Translations under genes and position numbers: made by a program | Notes under the pieces: model-generated | Seen by the model: only the letters and a program-made list of their open reading frames with translations | Told to the model about the DNA's origin: nothing | Database searches by the model: none | NCBI GenBank assembly: GCA_000934665.2 | Contig: JYFJ02002076.1 | Span: 1-63,486, forward strand | Source of the DNA: Catajapyx aquilonaris | Lineage: Eukaryota | Direction: 5' to 3' | Length of the DNA: 63,486 nucleotides | Shown: positions 29,157 to 63,047 of the stretch, piece after piece | How positions within the stretch are numbered: the first letter of the stretch is position 1 | Layout of the letters: each line of letters begins with the position of its first letter

Positions 29157-29209
29157 GTAAGACAGCTGAATTACCAACAGTGTGAACGACTAATGCTATT
29201 TCTTTGCAG

Positions 29210-29519
29210 GGAAAGCCAGTGACAGACATTGACATTGAGCTTCAGACGCACTTTATAGAAGTTTACTCAACTAGGCTGCGAATCCATGCCCACTTCACTG
29301 GCTTGCGCTATTTCATGTTCCATTGGCCTGTTGCCTCTGCCATTGTTGGTATCAGCACTAACCTGTCCTTCCTGAGTCTTATAATGGTGCTGTCATGGTA
29401 TCGCTTCTATCCACACGAGATGGTAATAAAACTAGACATGAACCAGCCTCGGAGTTATGGTGAGTCCCAACCAGAATTGCAATCCGGGGCGTTGGAGAAG
29501 GAACAGCTGGGAAGGACAT
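29210..29519 (+). CDS. BSCL2: Seipin, exon 4 (TM2)
   Basis: Follows a 53-nt intron ending TTGCAG. GKPVTDIDIELQ...IHAHFTGLRYFMFHWPVASAIVG... matches seipin. The donor is GTGAGT at 29520, or the same-phase GTGAGT at 29460. Confidence 0.9.
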
Positions 29520-29581
29520 GTGAGTATAATTGTACACCTTGTTGGAAAATCTGAACTAAAAATGGAAATATGTTTTTATAG

Positions 29582-37562: not shown

Positions 37563-37968
37563 TTAATAATTTGCCTCTTGCTTGCAAGATAATTCAACAA
37601 TGCGTCCACATAGCTCCACTGCTATTCCATTTGCTGGCAGGATAAATTCTCTCTCCTCAGTTGGTTTGATCTCAACCAGATTCTCATTGCTGCGTCTCAA
37701 GTCCTCATACAACCATACCTCAACAAATCTACTTTTTCCATGCATAGCAAGGATGTAGACAGCATCAAGTTCGTCATTCAGTTGCTCTGTAAAGACATCC
37801 CAGTTGTCAGGCGAAACTGTAATGCAGCAACATTCAACTCCATGTGCAGCCATATTGCCAGTATGTGATGGTCTTGACTTCAAGGCTACAGCAATTCCAA
37901 TCACAACAGCCCAGTGAGCTGCATGCCCTTTCTTGCAACAAGGACTGAAGTTGTGGTCAGAATCATAA
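37563..37968 (-). CDS. ACTMAP: Actin maturation protease (UPF0692/C19orf54), exon 3
   Basis: (P)YDSDHNFSPCCKKGHAAHWAVVIG...LAMHGKSR...VWLYEDLRRSNENL...LCGR matches the family motifs PYD.D.N..P...GH.AHWA and GKS....W....L..SN..L. Confidence 0.92.
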
Positions 37969-39931
37969 CTAAATGATATTAAGGTGAACAATTTTCCTTG
38001 TAAATGACCATAGTACTATACGACAGTCTCATATAGAAATATCACAGTCATGATTAGTCAAGTGCAGTTTCAGGGGTGCAAGGTAGTTAGGGTGTCCTGG
38101 ATTTGACACCAATGGCTAATAAGCTATTGTTGACTGTCCTTTTAGTGGTTTTTCTTAGATCAATTGCAGAGAGAGGACAAGATTGTACCCACCGGATTAT
38201 TCCATAACTGTACAATGCACACAATTATGGCAAAGTAGATTGACTCAGGGTTGCTGATCATTATGGCAATGGTAAGAAGGGTTTTGCATATTTATACCAT
38301 GCATTATTATTCATGTCCTACCTTCTAAGTATTAGAATTTGACACCATTTTGCTAACATTTGACATCAACTCCCACATGATATTAACAACTTTTGCCTCT
38401 AAAATGTCACCTCCTATTCCCTCTTCATGTGATGTCACATTTCATTGTGGAGAAATTTTTATAGCTTTGAGCGTGTGGAAACAAGTAGGTAAATTTGGAT
38501 TTTTTTGGTAAGCCCCACTGAGACAGGAGGAGACAGGACAGTGTTAGTCTTGTTAGTGCACTTGCTTTCTCTGTTGGAAATGGTCATGGAGTCATAGGGA
38601 GCACCACAATGAGGTATACCTATTAGGAGGAAACCTGTTTGCCTACTGGGAACTGCTTAGACAGTGGAAGAGAGAGTGTATGATGTCCCACCCGTAAGGC
38701 GAGCTGGACTCCTATAAACAGGAGTGACTTTATGAACACAACTTCTCCCCTTTCTACCATTCCATTACCAGCTGTGGTAATCACTACTCAACAAATTCAC
38801 TCAGAATTAAGTAACATTTTTGAACTTCAGCAATATATGAGGGGCGTTCGGAAAGTCTTTATTTTTTTGCCGCAAATACAGTGCCCCTGCAGGTCGGCAC
38901 ATAGGCACACATAATCGATAGAACCCTTCTGGAGCCAAATGCACTGGCATCATAGGTAAGTCAACCACTCCAGGCCCTCCAGGAACCACATTTTGGTGAT
39001 GCAGCCACCCTCGGACAACCACTTACAGTCAACAACTACTGTCAACAATGCCCTGAAAATGCATTGGCGAAAGGAGTTTTTTATAGATCTGGCTTTGGGT
39101 GCTACCACACTTGCCGTACTCTCCAGACCTGGCCCCCAGACACTTTCACCTGTTCGGATCCGTGAAAAAACCCCTTTGCCGACGCCATTTCGAGGACATT
39201 GTTGAACAGGAACCAGTTGTCCGGGAGTGGGTGCAACGCACCTCCAAAAAATGGTCCCTGCAGGGCCTGGAAAAGTTGACATACCTATGACGCCAGTGCA
39301 TTCGGCTCCAGGAGGGTTCTATCGATTACGTGTGCCTATCTGCCAACCTGCATGGGCCCTGTATTTGTGGCAAAAAATAATGTGATAGAAGACTTTCCGA
39401 ACACCCCTCATGTATAACTTTTCCGTAAGGAATATTATTTTCTTTAAACAACTTGAATAACTCTGGTTGAATAGTATGAACATAATTATATATCAGTAAT
39501 GCAGTTTTAAATGTGTAGTTTGCACAACTTGATATGGGACCCATTTTAATTCTTGCTCTGTAAGCTATCTGCAGGGAAGCCCAACAGGCAAGATCTGCGA
39601 TTTTAAGTTTGATTTCATTTAATTTTGTCAATCACAAACCCTAGCTTGCTTGGGCAACTGCAGGAGAGAGTGTCCACTTGCACACCATATCTGCATGCAA
39701 TAGGTGAATTAGGCCCAGCTTTATGAATGCAGATTTAGGAAAGAGATCTGATTATGTTTAAGTATTCACAATAAATAATTATTTTATGTTAATTTGAGTT
39801 GATACACCTCACCTAGCCTCCTAGCCCTTAATGTGAGAGCAGCAGCATGATACATAAGAAGTCTCCATGATTCTTATTATTCCATACCTTCCCGTTTGTG
39901 CAATATCACATGACAACTTTTAAAAGGATAC
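37969..39931 (-). other. ACTMAP: U12-type (minor spliceosome) GT-AG intron
   Basis: 5' splice site GTATCCTTT. Branch-site-like TTCACCTTAAT about 10 nt before the AG, with no long pyrimidine tract. Confidence 0.88.
38838..39410. mobile_element. Fold-back MITE made of two inverted mariner transposase 3' ends
   Basis: Ends TGAGGGGCGTTCGGAAAGTCTT / AAGACTTTCCGAACACCCCTCA. The plus strand encodes PHLPYSPDLAPRHFHLFGSVKKPLCRRHF..., the mariner YSPDLAP motif. Confidence 0.88.
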
Positions 39932-40180
39932 GGCACAAGGAGTACCTTCCCATTGATAAGGCGCTGAAGGAATCCCTTTGGTCCATCCCTAAATGCATTG
40001 TGAACCAAATCTGCCTTCTTACCTGGGATGCACAAATTTGCTAACTGAGCCATGTTTTCTGCTGAGAACATTTCACCTTGGTGCGTAAAGCCCTCCTTCA
40101 ATGCCACTGCAAGCAAATGATCTTGGTGGACATGATCAGGCAAAAGCTGTGTTGCCATGCTTAGGGCAACTAGGCCACAC
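39932..40180 (-). CDS. ACTMAP: Actin maturation protease, exon 2 (catalytic Cys)
   Basis: TTTTCAG acceptor. (K)CGLVALSMA...GFTHQGEMFSAENMAQLA...VLLVP matches family motifs GP.CGLVAL.MA and T..GEMFS. Confidence 0.95.
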
Positions 40181-40670
40181 CTGAAAAAATGAAGGCAATG
40201 AAACACTTGGCCATAAAAACATATGAGATGAAACAAAACATTGCACTTTTCTAGAAGAACAATACAAACAATACAATGTAAACATGTACTGGCTTACAAC
40301 TTAGGTTTTTTAAAACCTTAATTGACCTTTGTACATTTACCCTTAGTGTGGTGGATGTCAATTGGCAACGAAGATATAATTGATAAAGCTGAAATATGTA
40401 TGATTGCATTTATGTGTGCTGTGGTATACCGTGGTTGTCTCCTACTTAACCTACTTTCTGTGAATATTTTTCAAGCCAACTGTTCTCACATATGCAGAAA
40501 AATATTTCTAGTGGTACATTCCAACATTACTTCACCCCAATAAGCACTGTTATATACCAGAGATTCTTTCCTGAAAACAATGAGACCATGGGGCGTAACT
40601 TATGTCCAACAAAACTGGATAGATACTTTAGTCCAAAGACTGCACAGTAAGACTCACTTTTGATGGTTTA

Positions 40671-40795
40671 GGGCCGGTTTCACCAAGCCCGGTTTTGATA
40701 AAACCCCTGTTCTTTCGGAAAATCCCTATTCTATTTGCAGGGATTTTCCGAAAGAACCGGGGTTTCATCAAAATCGGGCTTGGTGAAACCTGCCC
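40671..40795. mobile_element. 125-bp PIF/Harbinger MITE (diverged copy)
   Basis: GGGCCGGTTTCACC ... GGTGAAACCTGCCC with TTA TSD. Related to the copies at 56320 and 61991. Confidence 0.85.
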
Positions 40796-40975
40796 TTAGG
40801 AAGGAAGTCTACAGGTACCAGGGGTATAATGCAATAGAGTGGTGAAATACAAAATAATACCCATTTCACGTGGTACCACACGCTCCCAAAGTCATCAATA
40901 AGTCATACTGTACAATCTTTACAGACTTGATCTCTGAGTCACATTTATTGGGCCTCTATCCAAATGCGATTAATA

Positions 40976-52526: not shown

Positions 52527-54476
52527 TTAGCAAGAAGTGGTAGATGGCTCAAGCAGGGAGGATTCCTCATTTCCCCATTCCTTAGTGTCGCCATCATAAT
52601 GCTTAGCCTCTTCTCCATCTTCCGTATCTGACGATGTTGGGACTGGATCTTGTGATCCTGTGGCAAGCAACTTCTTTGTGACCGGTTTTCTTGTTCTTGT
52701 TGACTGCTCCAGCTTCCAAGTAGAAACTGACTGTTGGCATGTGCTCTTTACTTCTTTGTACGTAGAGGTTGTCAAGGTGGTTATGACAGGAGTACACTCC
52801 TGCTCTTGAAGCCACTGGGCACCTTGTTCTTCTAAACTGCCTTTCTCTGTACTGGAGATGGGTGATTCATCATTTCCCCATTCCTTAGCGTCACCATCAT
52901 AATGCTTAGCCTCTTCTCCATCTTCCTTTTCTGACGATGTTGGGACTGGATCTTGTGATCCTGTGGCAAGCAACTTCTTTGTGACCGGTTTTCTTGTTCT
53001 TGTTGACTGCTCCAGCTGCCAAGTAGAAACTGACTGTTGGCATGTGCTCTGTACTACTTTGTACGTAGAGGTTGTCAAGGTGGTTATGACAGGAGTACAC
53101 TCCTGCTCTTGAAGCCACTGGGCACCTTGTTCTTCTAAACTGCCTTTCTCTGTACTGGAGATGGGTGTTTCCAACCTGGTGATGGCAGCAGGAGTGCTCT
53201 TCTCTTGAGGTGATGATGCTTTTTGCAGCTGGGTAGCAGATTCCTTTGAATTGTATTTCTGTTCTGGAGACATAATTGTTGTTATTGTGGGAATCAGAGG
53301 GTGAGGTGGAGGGGTTCTCTCATGTTGTGTCTGAGGTGGCTTCTTTGTTGTATTCTTTGCTTGGGATACAATGGATGAGGTCTTTATGCCAGCGCCTTTC
53401 TGCTCGCTGCAGATCAGTTGATCCAGCTCAGGCAGAAATTTTTCAAGAAATCTATCACTCTTGAAATAAGAATGTTTCATTAGATTTTTTGCCTTCCATC
53501 GTGTCTTTGGGTCAGGATCCAGGCAACAGCCAAGGAAGTCGAGAGTCTCATTGGTCCACTCAGGGCGCAGGTTTTTAAGGCACTCGTTCACTTTCAGCCA
53601 GGGTTTTTTATCCTTGTTTTCCAACTCTCCTCCCTTACATTCATAATAACTTGTCATCGTTTTGCAAAATTTTTTGGAAACTGCACGCATCAGCTTGTGA
53701 TTATCCTTAATTAATTGCCACTGGGACTCTGTGAGGTGTCCCAGGCAGTTAGTCACAAGAATCAGTTGGTGTTCATTTGACTCACCAGGAAATAAAGCCT
53801 TTCCACTCAGTATCTCATACAACAGACAGCCAAATGACCAGATGTCCACTTTTCTTCCATATTTGTGCTCTTGCACTATCATCTCTGGAGCACGGTACCA
53901 AGTCGTGGCGACATAACCGGTCAGTGTTACCTCCGTTCCTGCAGTCCCTGGCTGTCTGGTGTCCTTGCTGGTTGGATGTGTTCCAGCACTCTGCTGTGCT
54001 AACTCCTGGCTTGTAGATAAACAATATCTTGAGCATCCGAAGTCACATAATTTAATTAAACCGCTTGTCGTAACGAGGACATTTTCAGGCTTGATATCCC
54101 GATGCATAATTTTATTAGCATGGCAATAATGCATGGCTCTCAACAGCTGATAGACATATCTTCGTGCACGGTCAGGATGTAAACCCGGTGAGGAAGATTT
54201 TTGTAGCTCTTTCCTAAGTGAATGGTGCACATACTCCAAAACAATGAAGGTACTTTGACAGTTGCGAAAGACTTCTATCAGGCCTACGAGATTTTCGTGT
54301 TGGAGCTTCTGGAGAAATTCAACCTCCCTCTTAATCATCAACTTGTGTTGTTCGCCTACTCCAGCTCTTCTTATTGCTTTGATTGCAACCATTTTTCCAG
54401 TTATTTTGCTTTTTGCTTTCGTCACTTCGCCAAAACCTCCCCTTCCTATGATTCTGAAGGTCTCATACCTCTCCAT
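52527..54476 (-). CDS. CDKL: Intronless divergent cyclin-dependent kinase-like (CDKL2/3-type) Ser/Thr kinase, 649 aa
   Basis: All catalytic motifs present (GRGGFG, VAIK, HRDIKPEN, DFG, WYRAPE). CDKL-type segments include HENLVGLIEVFR, EYVHH, GLIKLCDFG and FLEKFLPEL. Long low-complexity tail. Confidence 0.9.
   Translation of the reverse strand: MERYETFRIIGRGGFGEVTKAKSKITGKMVAIKAIRRAGVGEQHKLMIKREVEFLQKLQHENLVGLIEVFRNCQSTFIVLEYVHHSLRKELQKSSSPGLHPDRARRYVYQLLRAMHYCHANKIMHRDIKPENVLVTTSGLIKLCDFGCSRYCLSTSQELAQQSAGTHPTSKDTRQPGTAGTEVTLTGYVATTWYRAPEMIVQEHKYGRKVDIWSFGCLLYEILSGKALFPGESNEHQLILVTNCLGHLTESQWQLIKDNHKLMRAVSKKFCKTMTSYYECKGGELENKDKKPWLKVNECLKNLRPEWTNETLDFLGCCLDPDPKTRWKAKNLMKHSYFKSDRFLEKFLPELDQLICSEQKGAGIKTSSIVSQAKNTTKKPPQTQHERTPPPHPLIPTITTIMSPEQKYNSKESATQLQKASSPQEKSTPAAITRLETPISSTEKGSLEEQGAQWLQEQECTPVITTLTTSTYKVVQSTCQQSVSTWQLEQSTRTRKPVTKKLLATGSQDPVPTSSEKEDGEEAKHYDGDAKEWGNDESPISSTEKGSLEEQGAQWLQEQECTPVITTLTTSTYKEVKSTCQQSVSTWKLEQSTRTRKPVTKKLLATGSQDPVPTSSDTEDGEEAKHYDGDTKEWGNEESSLLEPSTTSC
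52562..53167 (-). repeat. In-frame 303-bp tandem duplication (101 aa) in the kinase tail
   Basis: Units 52562-52864 and 52865-53167 are nearly identical (PISSTEKGSLEEQGAQW...KEWGN). Confidence 0.95.
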
Positions 54477-55997: not shown

Positions 55998-56319
55998 TAT
56001 AGAGTGAACCTTGTTGTAATGGGTCTCATGTTGTAATGGGTATGACACAGGCTTTATGCAGAGTTTTGCCACTAATTTTTATACTACAAGCTACTAAATA
56101 CTTGTATCCAGTAATTTGCCCATATTTTCCCACATTACTGATGCCAAGCAGGATATTTATCCTAGAAAAGTCAGATAATTCCTATAAGTCACATTGAGAA
56201 AAATGGTCTCCAAATAGATTACATGTGTGAAAATACAATGGGTATTTGAATGATATAATTAACAGGTACAATTTAACGCTAAATGTTGTTTTTTGTTGTT
56301 GTGGGTTATCAGGGGCTTA

Positions 56320-56444
56320 GGGCCGGTTTCACCGAGCTTGGTATATGATAAAACCAGGTTTCTTTAGGAAAATCCATACAAATAGATAGGTATTTTGAGA
56401 AATACCCTGGTTTTATCATATACTGAGCTCGGTGAAACCGGCCC
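56320..56444. mobile_element. 125-bp PIF/Harbinger MITE
   Basis: GGGCCGGTTTCACCGAGCT ... AGCTCGGTGAAACCGGCCC with TTA TSD. One mismatch to the copy at 61991. Confidence 0.9.
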
Positions 56445-56939
56445 TTAGTGATATGATTTTTAAAATGAAAGATGTCACATCAGAATCAACTACTCTTGAA
56501 TTCAGGATTTACGGGCTTTTGAAACTGACTGACCCCCCTTTGGTCTTACCTTTAGCAGTATGGTGAGGTATCCGTCTCAAATTCAGTAACCATGGGCTCC
56601 TCCTGCCCCACTAGCATGCCCCATTAACAGATGTATACAGACTGGTACATATAACATGCATTAATTATGCTTTAAAAATTTGAGCCTGTGTTGTAAATTT
56701 TTTAAATTTTTTAAATGAAATAATATGGTGAGTTGTTAACATGTGTTTCCATGGCTTGGGCTAAGCAGGGCAAGAATGGATAAGGCTGCCAATGGGGAAA
56801 ATACTGGATTTTCTTTGCATACAGTAAACGACATTAAATTCTTGCATGGTGATTGGACAGAGACATTGCCTCCAGTGGTAACTTACTCCCATTGCTCCCC
56901 TTCCCCTCTCTCCCCTATTAACACCATAAATCAGTAGTG

Positions 56940-59753: not shown

Positions 59754-61744
59754 TATTTCTTAAACGGACATTAAAGGGAGGGGGAGCAACATAATTATTC
59801 CGTAAAACAATTCCAGTCGGGTTGCGCTTGTTATTAATTGTTGACAAAAACTAACCGCCTTAGACTGTGGTAAGCTACTTTGTTATCAAAATTGCTTGCT
59901 ATAGATTTCAATATAATTGAAGGGCTCCATGGAACCCTTCAATTATGTTTAGTCAGCCGTTACCGTACCTCCCGTACCTGTTCAATGTTTCAACAAGCTT
60001 GCTCGTTGCTTTTGTTGCTAATATCAATAATATTATTGTTGATATGCCTCTTTCCCACTCTTTCCCGTCGATATCTTGCGTCACCCAACAGAGCTTATCA
60101 AGAGGGCGGAAAGGTTTGTCTTTTAATGCCCAAGTTGGAATACACCCCTGCCCTTCCCTGACAGCTTCAGGAAGAAAAATTAGCTGAGGGTAAATGAAGC
60201 TAGAAAGCGGAGGCGTCTGATCTGGAAGCAGCCCCNNNNNNNCCCCCCCCCCCCATGACTTTGGTCTGTTGCCACTTGAAGAATCAGCAGCGGTTCCACC
60301 ACTAACAACACAAGAGAACCCAGCGAATGCCATGCTCCCGCTGGATTTAATGACGCACGTCCGCACTGGTATACCCGGATTCCAAAGTATATGTGGAAGG
60401 GGACGCACGAATATTCCGGGTTTTGGTTACGGTTCAAGTCAACTGTGCACCCGGTTTGGGCTTCCACCAACTGATTTATTGTGTTTCTTGCTTGGCGGGT
60501 GGGCTGGAACTAATGCTGAAGAGTTGCTGACAACATTGTGGATTTCAGCCCTTGGAAATGATTCGGTACACCTATAGATATATGTACTGTAATGGGCGAT
60601 AATGGGTATGTTATAACCAAAATAAAAACTTCCTCTGGCTATACTACTGTTTACTAGGATGTTTACTATTTATTTTTACCCCATGCTACCAAAACAAAAT
60701 GCAGCCATTCCAAAGTGCTTGTTCTCCATCCAAAGCGATTTAAAAAAAAAAAAGTGTGCCCACATCTCATTGTCACGATTTGTAAATGTCCCTATAGGTG
60801 TGGTTAAACACCTTTAATTAATCAGTTGTCGGGATCGATTAGTCGAAATATCGGTCTTATTCCTTTGCAACAAGATTTACAAGCCGTACCTCTGGCAGGT
60901 TTAGATGAGAGAAAAACGTGAAGGAGAAAGCCCTTCTTAAACACTCCTCGATGCCTCTAATGCACCCATTTAATGAAAAGCCTGCCGCCAACATGTCAAT
61001 CTGTGGCTCAGGATGTTTTTCAAAATAGATTGCTTTGCCTGCGAGAGGCATATTTCATACTGTCCGTCTGGTAAAATAAAAATAACGGGGGGGTGGGGAT
61101 GTTCATTTGGCGGCGCGTTTCACGTTGTCTCGGTTGGTGTCGCGTTTTGCGGAAACGACGTTTGGAATTGCTAGTCTGTCAGAAGGAATGACGTTCAAAG
61201 CTGAAAGGACCTGGAAAATATTCGAATTATCCGCCATATAGCCTTTGCCCAACACGTGCAATTTGATGGACGACAATGAACTCGGTCTTTGCGCCTCGTG
61301 CAGCCTCGTGCGCATATGCTTTCATACCTTTATGTATGATTGGGATGCCTCATTAAAGTCGATAATATGAGGAGGTACGTTTCAAAGGGATTTGTATGCT
61401 GTAACGCCGGAACGTTTATGCGCAGTTACATTTGGTGGTCGTGTAGAGAGCGATCTGCAGAAATAAATCATCTTGTGACCACTTGGCGCAAAGGAAAGCG
61501 ATTTTTAACCCCTTCACTATACCAGCTAGGCCCAAAACGCCTATATAGATTGTTGTCTACGCCTACTCTGAAGATAAAGACAAGGTATTTTACCAATAAT
61601 AACACCTAACTAATAACAGCCATAATTCCGAATGTGTTGCGAATAATTTTACTCCTCTAGAAGTCCCTAAATTTATTTCCAAAAAGACCGCTGTAAAAAC
61701 TCGAAATTACGCTTTACACACACTTTATAAGTGGGAAAAGAAGA

Positions 61745-61818
61745 TGGCCCGCATGGGGGTCGAACCCACGACCTTCGCGTTATCAGCACGACGCTCTAAC
61801 CAACTGAGCTAACGGGCC
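61745..61818 (-). tRNA. tRNA-Ile-GAT: tRNA-Ile, anticodon GAT
   Basis: 74-nt cloverleaf, exact reverse complement of 62304-62377, followed by a T4 run (61736-61739). Confidence 0.93.
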
Positions 61819-61990
61819 TGGTTGTTATACAACTGGTTCAAATGAAACGTAAAGTGATAAAACAATCTATAGAGTGATAAAAATATTACTCGACCTTCTC
61901 TTTCCTGAAGACAGTGATCATTACAATTTATGGGATGGGAGGATGAGGAGAGGGTTCATTCGAGGGGAGTACATTGTTAGTTTTGATTCA

Positions 61991-62115
61991 GGGCCGGTTT
62001 CACCGAGCTTGGTATATGATAAAACCAGGTTTCTTTAGGAAAATCCATACAAATAGATAGGGATTTTGAGAAATACCCTGGTTTTATCATATACTGAGCT
62101 CGGTGAAACCGGCCC
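61991..62115. mobile_element. 125-bp PIF/Harbinger MITE in the tRNA-pair spacer
   Basis: Identical to 56320-56444 except for one base. Confidence 0.9.
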
Positions 62116-62303
62116 TGAATGGAAAGCGACAGTTGGACACCTCCCCCCCCCNCTCCCCTCGAATGAACCCTCTCCTCATCCTCCCATCCCATAAATTGTA
62201 ATGATCACTGTCTTCAGGAAAGAGAAGGTCGAGTAATATTTTTATCACTCTATAGATTGTTTTATCACTTTACGTTTCATTTGAACCAGTTGTATAACAA
62301 CCA

Positions 62304-62377
62304 GGCCCGTTAGCTCAGTTGGTTAGAGCGTCGTGCTGATAACGCGAAGGTCGTGGGTTCGACCCCCATGCGGGCCA
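62304..62377 (+). tRNA. tRNA-Ile-GAT: tRNA-Ile, anticodon GAT
   Basis: GGCCCGT/GCGGGCC acceptor stem, GCTC/GAGC D stem, TCGTG-CTGATAA-CGCGA anticodon arm (GAT at 62338-62340), GTGGG-TTCGACC-CCCAT T arm, discriminator A, and T5 Pol III terminator at 62383-62387. Confidence 0.93.
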
Positions 62378-63047
62378 TCTTCTTTTTCCACTTTATCATA
62401 AAGTGTGTGTAAAAGCGTATACATTTCCATTTTATTAATAATTTAGTATAGGCTACGCAATATTTTACACACTTTACAATAAGTGGGGAAAAGAAGCTTG
62501 TTAATAAGTTTTTTATTTTTTTATTTTCTCACGCATACCTCCCTCTCCTCCAGTATAGGCCTACATAGACGTCATCATGTGACTTCGATACAGTTTTAAT
62601 CTTTAATTATATGGAACCGGTATTTTACGCATAACAGACCGAAAGTGACACCTCTTCATATATAGACTTATAGAGGTTGCAATAAATGTAACTTATATAA
62701 TTATAGAGAGCTACCGTAGCGTGTAACGTCTAAAACGGCTTCGTAACATCAACATTGAAATTACATGATGGCTGAGCGTGTATAGGGTGTTTGTGCGAAT
62801 TACTGAAAATTAGCTAAACTATACTATTATGCTTGCTGGCGTGTAGTTAATCTCGTTTCTTATCTCTAAGCAGGTAGGCTACTCGCTACCCCCGCGAGCA
62901 TAAAGACGGAGACGGCAGCGGCAGGCCCTTTTTTGACCTTTCTTTATCCGACTCAAATTAAATAATTAATGAACTCTTTTTGGATCGAGTTAGCTGCTTC
63001 AGGCGTGTGTTCGTGTATTTACGACTACGACAGTATATTTTGATACC

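What the first reader, a model, noticed from the sequence alone, without database searches (positions are those of the whole stretch)
61745..62377. Two identical, intact tRNA-Ile genes with the GAT anticodon that eukaryotes generally avoid
Seen: both copies have a eukaryotic Ile(AAT)-type body but G at position 34. All stems pair (with G-U wobbles), the A/B boxes are intact and T-run terminators follow. Established: eukaryotes normally decode AUU/AUC with A34 edited to inosine by ADAT2/3. G34 Ile tRNAs are the prokaryotic solution and are rare in eukaryotic nuclear genomes. Inference: this could be an expressed, ADAT-independent Ile decoder, a genomically hard-wired A34-to-G variant, a non-translational tRNA, or a young duplicated pseudogene. 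There is no encoded CCA, which argues against retroposition of a mature edited tRNA.
Basis: partly seen in the sequence, partly recalled or inferred. Interest (0 to 1): 0.75.

Follow-up and report, generated by a model that had tools for sequence, protein, structure and literature searches.

The report
Conserved G34 isoleucine tRNA gene, doubtful duplicate
This is a real, working-looking isoleucine tRNA gene with a G-starting anticodon that also occurs in several other eukaryotes, a known but uncommon kind, and its second copy in this window may be an assembly error.

Summary
ARAGORN and Rfam each find two 74-nt tRNA-Ile(GAT) genes, at 61745-61818 (-) and 62304-62377 (+). Both score 63.4 bits, all stem pairs are standard, a T-run follows each, and neither encodes CCA.

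The two genes are the arms of a near-perfect inverted repeat (61729-61969 / 62153-62393). Its right arm starts directly after an assembly N (62152), and a very high-copy foldback element sits at the centre. In contigs of the probable source run, the arm has single-copy depth (33, against flanks of 27 and 35). The second copy may therefore be an assembly artefact.

The gene type is real and conserved. An identical G34 gene occurs in a second organism's run. Thirteen further G34 genes in two metagenome sources share the same linked variants (C59, U7-G66). They differ from the window gene only by a compensated acceptor pair, have unrelated flanks, and all carry T-run terminators. The same 52-nt core carries AAT in 83 of 97 metagenome matches, so the body is Ile-type. 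It is absent from the prokaryotic and viral collections.

A functional Ile-GAU tRNA is already documented in human cells. I rate this a new member of a known kind, of modest interest. Expression, charging and the AAT gene count in this genome could not be tested.

The parts
61745..61818 (-). tRNA-Ile(GAT) gene, copy 1 (G34 = C at 61784 on the + strand)
   Evidence: ARAGORN. Rfam tRNA 63.4 bits. In run X1 no other letter is read at 61784 (0 of depth 246.8).
62304..62377 (+). tRNA-Ile(GAT) gene, copy 2 (anticodon 62338-62340), identical to copy 1
   Evidence: X1 contig 62349-62690 (depth 34.8) joins its 3' part to the right flank.
61736..61739 (-). T4 run 6 nt after copy 1 (Pol III terminator-like)
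   Evidence: Direct reading.
62383..62387 (+). T5 run 6 nt after copy 2 (T4 if 62387 is C, as the X1 contig reads)
   Evidence: table 3 shows 62387 T>C, 34.8 of 34.8.
61729..61969 (.). Left arm of the inverted repeat: 16-nt trailer, tRNA, 151 nt of 5' flank
   Evidence: X1 contig 61795-61990 has 0 differences and depth 33.
62153..62393 (.). Right arm of the inverted repeat. It begins directly after the N at 62152 and has one mismatch to the left arm, at 62387.
   Evidence: No separate contig depth over 62192-62279 in X1.
62152..62152 (.). Single N (assembly gap or ambiguity) after a C-run, at the inner edge of the right arm
   Evidence: 8 N runs in the window.
61981..62125 (.). Foldback, MITE-like element with 49-nt inverted ends at the palindrome centre; very high copy
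   Evidence: I2; copies at 56319-56445 (99%) and 40667-40796 (79%). X1 depth is 62,000-106,000 against about 30 for unique sequence.
61697..61728 (.). Outer left trailer, homologous to 62394-62433 but with indels. This is the diverged edge of the duplication.
   Evidence: (inverted self-match 61697-62433) and the alignment.
62467..62496 (.). Third, solitary trailer-like stretch (80% complementary to 62379-62408) with no tRNA beside it
   Evidence: (I3) and reading.

Best explanation
This is a genuine nuclear, Pol III-type tRNA-Ile gene whose anticodon is encoded as GAU. It belongs to a distinct, conserved, multi-copy G34 lineage derived from the ordinary Ile(AAU) body. The lineage is marked by the linked variants C59 and G66 (a U7-G66 wobble). 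The inferred mechanism follows. Transcription starts from the internal A and B boxes and stops at the T-run 6 nt downstream. The ends are trimmed, CCA is added, and isoleucyl-tRNA synthetase charges the tRNA. It reads AUC by Watson-Crick pairing and AUU by G-U wobble, but not AUA. With no A34 it cannot be an ADAT2/3 substrate, so it supplements (or in this lineage perhaps largely replaces) the I34 decoder. What is shown: the gene's integrity, its Ile-type body, its conservation with a compensated stem change, and its multiple copies. What is inferred: transcription, charging and decoding. The second copy in the window sits in a near-perfect palindrome that abuts an assembly N. I give about even odds that it is a real inverted duplicate and not a fold-back or gap-closure artefact.
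For: Structure: 63.4 bits, full-length, no non-standard pair; anticodon GAT.

Ile-type body: the 52-nt core (positions 8-59, with N at 34) gave 97 matches in 93 metagenome loci from 50 sources. Of these, 83 had A34, 13 had G34 and 1 had T34.

Distinct lineage: all 13 G34 genes are identical to each other. They share C59 and G66 with the window gene, and none of the 83 A34 genes has either variant. They differ from the window gene only at the pair 6:67, G-C versus A-U, which is a compensated change.

Dispersed genes: the 13 have unrelated flanks. All 13 have T4 or longer within 20 nt, and 0 of 13 encode CCA.

Other organisms: run X6 (organism B) has a contig identical over 61735-61818, and also an A34 contig with 6 differences. 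A marine RNA-library contig (X22) matches 62298-62377 with 1 difference and none listed at position 34.

Copy number: in X1, depth at the anticodon is 246.8 with 0 other letters, against 27-35 for unique flanks. The bin 62324-62367 has depth 674. This is a rough sign of several to many copies.

Not prokaryotic or viral: 0 matches in genome contigs and 0 in viral contigs.

Precedent: human tRNA-Ile-GAU has multiple loci, and its depletion lowers translation of AUC-rich genes (passages read).
Against: There are no expression or charging data for this organism. The X22 RNA-library contig carries leader and trailer sequence, so it may be DNA or precursor.

I could not count Ile-AAT genes in this genome because no genome is held.

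The metagenome matches were selected with an exact 52-nt core. The invariance of the D and anticodon arms is therefore by construction, and only the acceptor and T arms carry information.

A review passage states that G34 tRNAs of the ADAT families miscode and are toxic in eukaryotic systems unless positions 32 or 38 change (PMC8266599). This gene keeps the C32 and A38 of the AAT genes.

The only long ORF in the window uses ATT 9, ATC 8 and ATA 10, so there is no AUC preference. This is one ORF and counts for little.

For the duplicate, the arm contig depth is 33, which is about 1x, and the right arm starts at an N.
Confidence: 0.7

Rival explanations
1. Only one tRNA-Ile(GAT) gene exists at this locus, or the two genes have different 5' flanks. 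In this reading the perfect 241-nt palindrome was produced by assembly. The assembler either folded back through the palindromic high-copy element at the centre, or joined or filled across the N at 62152 using the shared tRNA repeat. This concerns the copy count and not the function of the gene, so it can hold together with the best explanation.
For: The X1 contig 61795-61990, which covers the arm and its junction to the central element, has depth 33. The unique flanks have depth 27.2 and 34.8. Two identical arms should give about 2x, because both strands count together. No variant contig of the arm was laid at 85% likeness or more (table 3). The right arm begins one base after an N that follows a C-run, and the window has 8 such N runs. 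No listed contig supports the junction 62126-62200. The centre is a foldback element of thousands of copies.
Against: The two 3' trailers are homologous but not identical: they carry indels beyond 16 nt. The two inner spacers differ, 11 nt against 27 nt plus a C-run. A plain hairpin artefact would not produce these differences. A third trailer-like remnant at 62467-62496 suggests real local duplication history. Contig depth is a mean per contig and only a rough measure, and only 19 of 895 pieces were listed.
Confidence: 0.45
2. The genes are neutral, recently mutated (A34 to G) and recently duplicated copies of an Ile(AAT) gene. On this view they are young pseudogenes with no role of their own.
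For: The gene is only 3 differences from the closest A34 variant seen. The two window copies are identical, as a recent duplication would leave them. There are no expression data.
Against: The same G34 + C59 + G66 combination recurs in organism B with 0 differences. It also recurs in 13 genes of two metagenome sources, with a compensated 6:67 change and intact terminators. None of the 13 shows decay.
Confidence: 0.08
3. The sequence is the head of a tRNA-derived repeat (SINE-like) family, or it acts in a non-translational role such as a chromatin boundary or a source of tRNA fragments.
For: X1 depth over the tRNA is several-fold the unique depth. The gene sits between two very high-copy repeats, 61532-61707 and 61981-62125.
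Against: In the 13 related G34 genes, similarity stops at the tRNA borders and the flanks are unrelated. The body is a complete cloverleaf with no degenerate positions. The neighbouring repeats are separate elements with their own borders: loose ends at 61708, 61990 and 62116.
Confidence: 0.04

Closest known systems
Human nuclear tRNA-Ile-GAU (tRNA-Ile-GAT genes)
   Same: It is a nuclear-encoded G34 isoleucine isoacceptor that coexists with the A34/I34 system and is very similar in sequence to the AAU isoacceptor. It is encoded at more than one locus and assigned to AUC. Source: passages of 10.1101/2021.04.22.440519 and 10.64898/2026.10.08.757597.
   Different: The organism is different. Here there are no expression or perturbation data. 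Copy number appears higher: 11 dispersed genes in one metagenome source, and roughly 8-fold depth or more in run X1. I did not compare the sequence with the human gene because none was available from a tool, so orthology and the C59/G66 signature in human are untested.
Eukaryotic cytosolic tRNA-Ile(AAU), deaminated to IAU by ADAT2/ADAT3
   Same: Same body: positions 8-59 are identical apart from 34 and 59 in 83 A34 genes from metagenome contigs. Same gene architecture: internal promoter boxes, T-run terminator, no CCA.
   Different: G instead of A at 34, so it is not a deaminase substrate and does not read AUA. The linked C59 and G66 are absent from all 83 A34 genes.
Bacterial and organellar tRNA-Ile(GAU)
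   Same: Same anticodon and the same expected decoding of AUC and AUU.
   Different: The body is unrelated. The 52-nt core has 0 matches in one genome for each of 185,579 prokaryotic species. No CCA is encoded, and the gene lies in intron-bearing nuclear DNA.
Giardia nuclear tRNA-Ile(GAU)
   Same: Another eukaryote-type Ile body with G34, judged there to be a conserved normal gene.
   Different: A different genome. That claim was not checked here, and no sequence comparison was made.

Membership tests
Eukaryotic nuclear (Pol III) tRNA-Ile gene | Complete cloverleaf that scores as a tRNA | tested here: met
   RF00005 at 63.4 bits (gathering score 29), model 1-71 of 71, no non-standard pair flagged. 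ARAGORN agrees.
Eukaryotic nuclear (Pol III) tRNA-Ile gene | Isoleucine-type body, not only an Ile anticodon | tested here: met
   The 52-nt core carries AAT in 83 of 97 metagenome matches and TAT in 1. No isotype-specific model such as tRNAscan-SE was available.
Eukaryotic nuclear (Pol III) tRNA-Ile gene | Internal A and B boxes, T-run terminator, no encoded CCA | tested here: met
   Read directly. The box consensus sequences are recalled and come from no call. T4 and T5 runs lie 6 nt downstream, and TCT follows A73.
Eukaryotic nuclear (Pol III) tRNA-Ile gene | Transcribed, processed and charged with isoleucine | not testable with these tools
   All runs were held as contigs only. The X22 RNA-library contig carries flanks and does not show a mature tRNA.
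ADAT2/ADAT3 substrate tRNAs (A34 to I34) | Adenosine encoded at position 34 | tested here: not met
   G at 62338 and C at 61784. In X1, 0 of depth 246.8 reads another letter at 61784.
Bacterial/organellar tRNA-Ile(GAU) | Body shared with prokaryotic Ile(GAU) genes | tested here: not met
   0 exact matches of the core in genome contigs and 0 in viral contigs. The match had to be exact, so distant likeness was not tested.
tRNA-derived repeat / decaying pseudogene family | Copies share sequence beyond the tRNA and accumulate disabling changes | tested here: not met
   The 13 related G34 genes are identical to each other and have unrelated flanks. Only 300 nt of flank per locus was examined. The window organism's own genome was not available.
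Retrocopy of a mature I34-edited tRNA | Encoded 3' CCA and loss of flanking terminator context | tested here: not met
   No CCA in the 2 window copies or in any of 13 related genes, and T-runs are present in all. An ancient origin by this route cannot be excluded.

The most novel reading that the evidence does not exclude
In this organism and its relatives the G34 gene is not a minor extra but the main decoder of AUU and AUC. That would be an animal-like eukaryotic lineage that has largely returned to the G34 solution for isoleucine and no longer depends on ADAT for this codon box. The hints are these. Run X1 shows roughly 8-fold or more of single-copy depth at the G34 anticodon, and no A34 contig was laid at 85% likeness or more. 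One metagenome source has 11 dispersed G34 genes and no A34 gene with this core. Against it: organism B holds both forms.
Probability: 0.15. Interest if true: 0.6.

Novelty: new member of a known kind. Interest (0 to 1): 0.3.

Why it matters
Reviews state that eukaryotes lack G34 tRNAs for the eight ADAT-dependent amino acids, and that I34 is therefore essential for C-ending codons (passages of PMC8007984, PMC4446420 and PMC8266599). A conserved, multi-copy Ile(GAU) lineage with its own linked body variants is one more documented exception, alongside the human case. The C59/G66 signature has a practical use. If the lineage turned out to rely mainly on G34, it would be a natural test of why eukaryotes prefer inosine. 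As it stands the gene itself is ordinary. The main correction is that the duplicate may not exist.

Tried and rejected
Whole genome: none is held, so Ile-GAT versus Ile-AAT gene counts and an ADAT2/3 search were impossible.

Earlier notes for this place: none.

Run X5 (same organism, another sample): it covered only the two high-copy repeats and nothing on the tRNA or the arms. It gives no independent confirmation of G34.

X22 RNA-library contig: it is not taken as evidence of expression.

Taxon: the 649-aa kinase ORF has best hits at only 38% identity, to animal CDKL kinases. An ACTMAP-like exon searched against longer proteins gave nothing. The organism is left as an intron-bearing, animal-like eukaryote.

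Bacterial promoter and terminator scan: irrelevant to a Pol III gene.

Search for the trailer motif elsewhere in the window at up to 3 mismatches: only the query site itself.

BLAST of the 93 metagenome loci against the window: nothing shared beyond the tRNA, short T-rich trailers and simple repeats. Relatedness of those organisms to the window's is therefore unknown.

Sequence look-up in earlier findings: only an unrelated viral tRNA-array note.

Literature: five searches found no paper on a conserved invertebrate Ile-GAT lineage. This is not proof that none exists, because GtRNAdb tables and subscription papers were not searchable. Supplements were not opened.

Full report
What is there. ARAGORN finds exactly two tRNA genes in the 63,486-base window. 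Both are tRNA-Ile with anticodon GAT, at 61745-61818 (-) and 62304-62377 (+). Rfam's tRNA model matches both over its full length at 63.4 bits (E 2e-11, gathering score 29) and flags no non-standard pair. These are the only two Rfam hits in the window. The two 74-nt sequences are identical. Reading the sequence directly shows wobble pairs at 7:66, 30:40 and 49:65. TAGCTCAGTTGG and GGTTCGACCCC stand where the A and B boxes belong; the consensus for those boxes is recalled, not looked up. No CCA follows A73, and a T4 or T5 run starts 6 nt downstream.

The two genes face away from each other and form the arms of an inverted repeat, 61729-61969 against 62153-62393. The whole inverted self-match runs 61697-62433. 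An alignment of the two halves shows four things:
- The core of 241 nt is identical except at 62387.
- The right arm starts one base after a single N at 62152, which follows a run of C. The window has 8 such N runs, so it is a draft assembly.
- The inner spacers differ, 11 nt on the left against 27 nt plus the C-run on the right.
- The outer 3' trailers remain alignable for about 35 more bases, but only with indels.

The centre, 61981-62125, is a foldback element with 49-nt inverted ends. It has a 99% copy at 56319-56445 and a 79% copy at 40667-40796. A third, solitary trailer-like stretch lies at 62467-62496.

Is the duplicate real? I laid contigs of four public runs on 61400-62700. X1 is the best holder and probably the source sample. 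Its unique left flank (contig 61400-61666) has depth 27.2, and its right flank (contig 62349-62690) has depth 34.8. The contig covering the arm and its junction to the central element (61795-61990, 0 differences) has depth 33. Word depth counts both strands together, so two identical arms should give about twice the flank depth. They do not. No variant arm contig was laid either, and nothing listed supports the junction from the C-run into the right arm. The right-flank contig reads C at 62387, where the window has T.

Against a plain fold-back artefact stand the different trailers, the different inner spacers and the third trailer remnant. These look like real local duplication history. I rate it about even that the genome has two genes here with identical 5' flanks. 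The tool listed only 19 of 895 laid pieces, and contig depth is a mean per contig, so this stays open. The central element reaches depth 62,000-106,000 and the repeat at 61532-61707 reaches up to 41,000. Both are very high-copy families.

Is the gene type real and constrained? I scanned metagenome contigs for the 52-nt core of the gene (positions 8-59) with any base at position 34. The scan gave 97 matches in 93 loci from 50 sources: 83 with A34, 13 with G34 and 1 with T34. The body is therefore the ordinary Ile(AAT) body.

The 13 G34 genes come from two sources, 11 dispersed on separate contigs in one and 2 on one contig in the other. They are identical to each other. Like the window gene they have C59 and G66, giving a U7-G66 wobble, and none of the 83 A34 genes has either variant. 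They differ from the window gene only at pair 6:67, A-U instead of G-C, which is a compensated change. Their flanks are unrelated. All 13 have a T4-or-longer run within 20 nt, and none encodes CCA.

On an alignment of the 10 distinct variants, 96.7% of cells pair, and 5 acceptor-stem pairs show changes on both sides. No shuffle of 500 and no slid control reaches this. The D and anticodon arms are invariant only because the scan required them to be.

In run X6 (organism B), one contig is identical to the window over 61735-61818, including G34 and 10 nt of trailer. A second contig has A34 and 6 differences. A contig of a marine RNA library (X22) matches 62298-62377 with one difference and none listed at position 34. 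It carries unrelated leader and trailer sequence, so it shows presence and not expression. The core has no match in one genome for each of 185,579 prokaryotic species, nor in the viral contigs. The window itself carries split exons of seipin and an ACTMAP-like protease, plus an intronless CDKL-like kinase ORF. It is eukaryotic nuclear DNA of an animal-like organism that I could not place more closely.

Copy number. In X1 the depth at the anticodon of the left copy is 246.8 with no other letter read. The bin 62324-62367 on the right copy has depth 674, against about 30 for unique sequence. Summed contig depths are a poor copy-number measure, and contigs resembling human DNA are dropped silently. 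All I take from this is that the G34 gene is present in several to many copies, and that no A34 relative was seen at 85% likeness or more. Whether A34 genes exist in this genome is unknown, because no genome is held.

How it most likely works. This part is inferred from established tRNA biology. RNA polymerase III transcribes from the internal boxes and stops at the T-run. The ends are processed, CCA is added, and isoleucyl-tRNA synthetase charges the tRNA. The GAU anticodon then reads AUC directly and AUU by wobble, with no need for ADAT2/3. None of these steps was observed here.

Comparison with what is known. Review passages say that eukaryotes lack the GAU anticodon for Ile and depend on I34 (PMC8007984; PMC4446420; PMC8266599). 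The last also reports that G34 tRNAs of these families can miscode in eukaryotic systems. [quoted passage not shown] However, human tRNA-Ile-GAU is encoded at several loci and is highly similar to the AAU isoacceptor. Its depletion or overexpression has codon-specific effects (10.1101/2021.04.22.440519, passages; 10.64898/2026.10.08.757597, passages).

The window gene is thus a new member of a known but uncommon kind. The new elements are the conserved C59/G66 signature, the compensated acceptor pair, and the apparently high copy number. For all papers I saw search listings, abstract starts and the cited passages only. No supplements were opened.

Verdict. Interest is 0.3. The boldest reading still open is that G34 is the main Ile decoder in this lineage. 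I give it a probability of about 0.15.

Noticed in passing
window 61981-62125; copies at 56319-56445 and 40667-40796: A foldback, MITE-like element of about 130-145 nt with 49-nt inverted ends. One copy elsewhere in the window is 99% identical. Contig depth in run X1 is 62,000-106,000 against about 30 for unique sequence, suggesting thousands of copies. It is also present in a second sample of the same organism (X5).
   Followed up: partly
window 61532-61707: A second very high-copy repeat (X1 depth up to about 41,000) ends sharply at 61708, right beside the left tRNA trailer. Many contigs run on with unlike sequence at 61564, 61630 and 61708.
   Followed up: no
window 52527-54476 (-): An intronless 649-aa ORF with a full protein kinase domain (Pfam Pkinase, 225 bits). 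Its best hits are animal CDKL kinases at only 38% identity over 55% of the query. It may be a diverged retrogene in otherwise intron-bearing DNA.
   Followed up: partly
window 29186-29551 (+); 37566-38015 (-) and 39880-40293 (-): Isolated exons matching seipin (C-terminal part) and an ACTMAP-like protease C-terminal domain, the latter split by about 1.9 kb. They show that the window is intron-bearing eukaryotic nuclear DNA.
   Followed up: partly
window 62467-62496: A solitary inverted copy (80%) of the tRNA 3' trailer with no tRNA beside it. It may be the remnant of a third gene copy or of a rearrangement.
   Followed up: partly
L091:286-359 (-), metagenome contig: One gene carries the same 52-nt Ile core but anticodon TAT, a quite different acceptor stem, and no intron in the anticodon loop region. 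It is followed directly by a T6 run.
   Followed up: no
L025:708-781 (+) and L042, metagenome contigs: In two loci, a second tandem copy of the A34 gene, about 414 nt after the first, loses similarity after the T-loop. These look like truncated or pseudogene copies.
   Followed up: no
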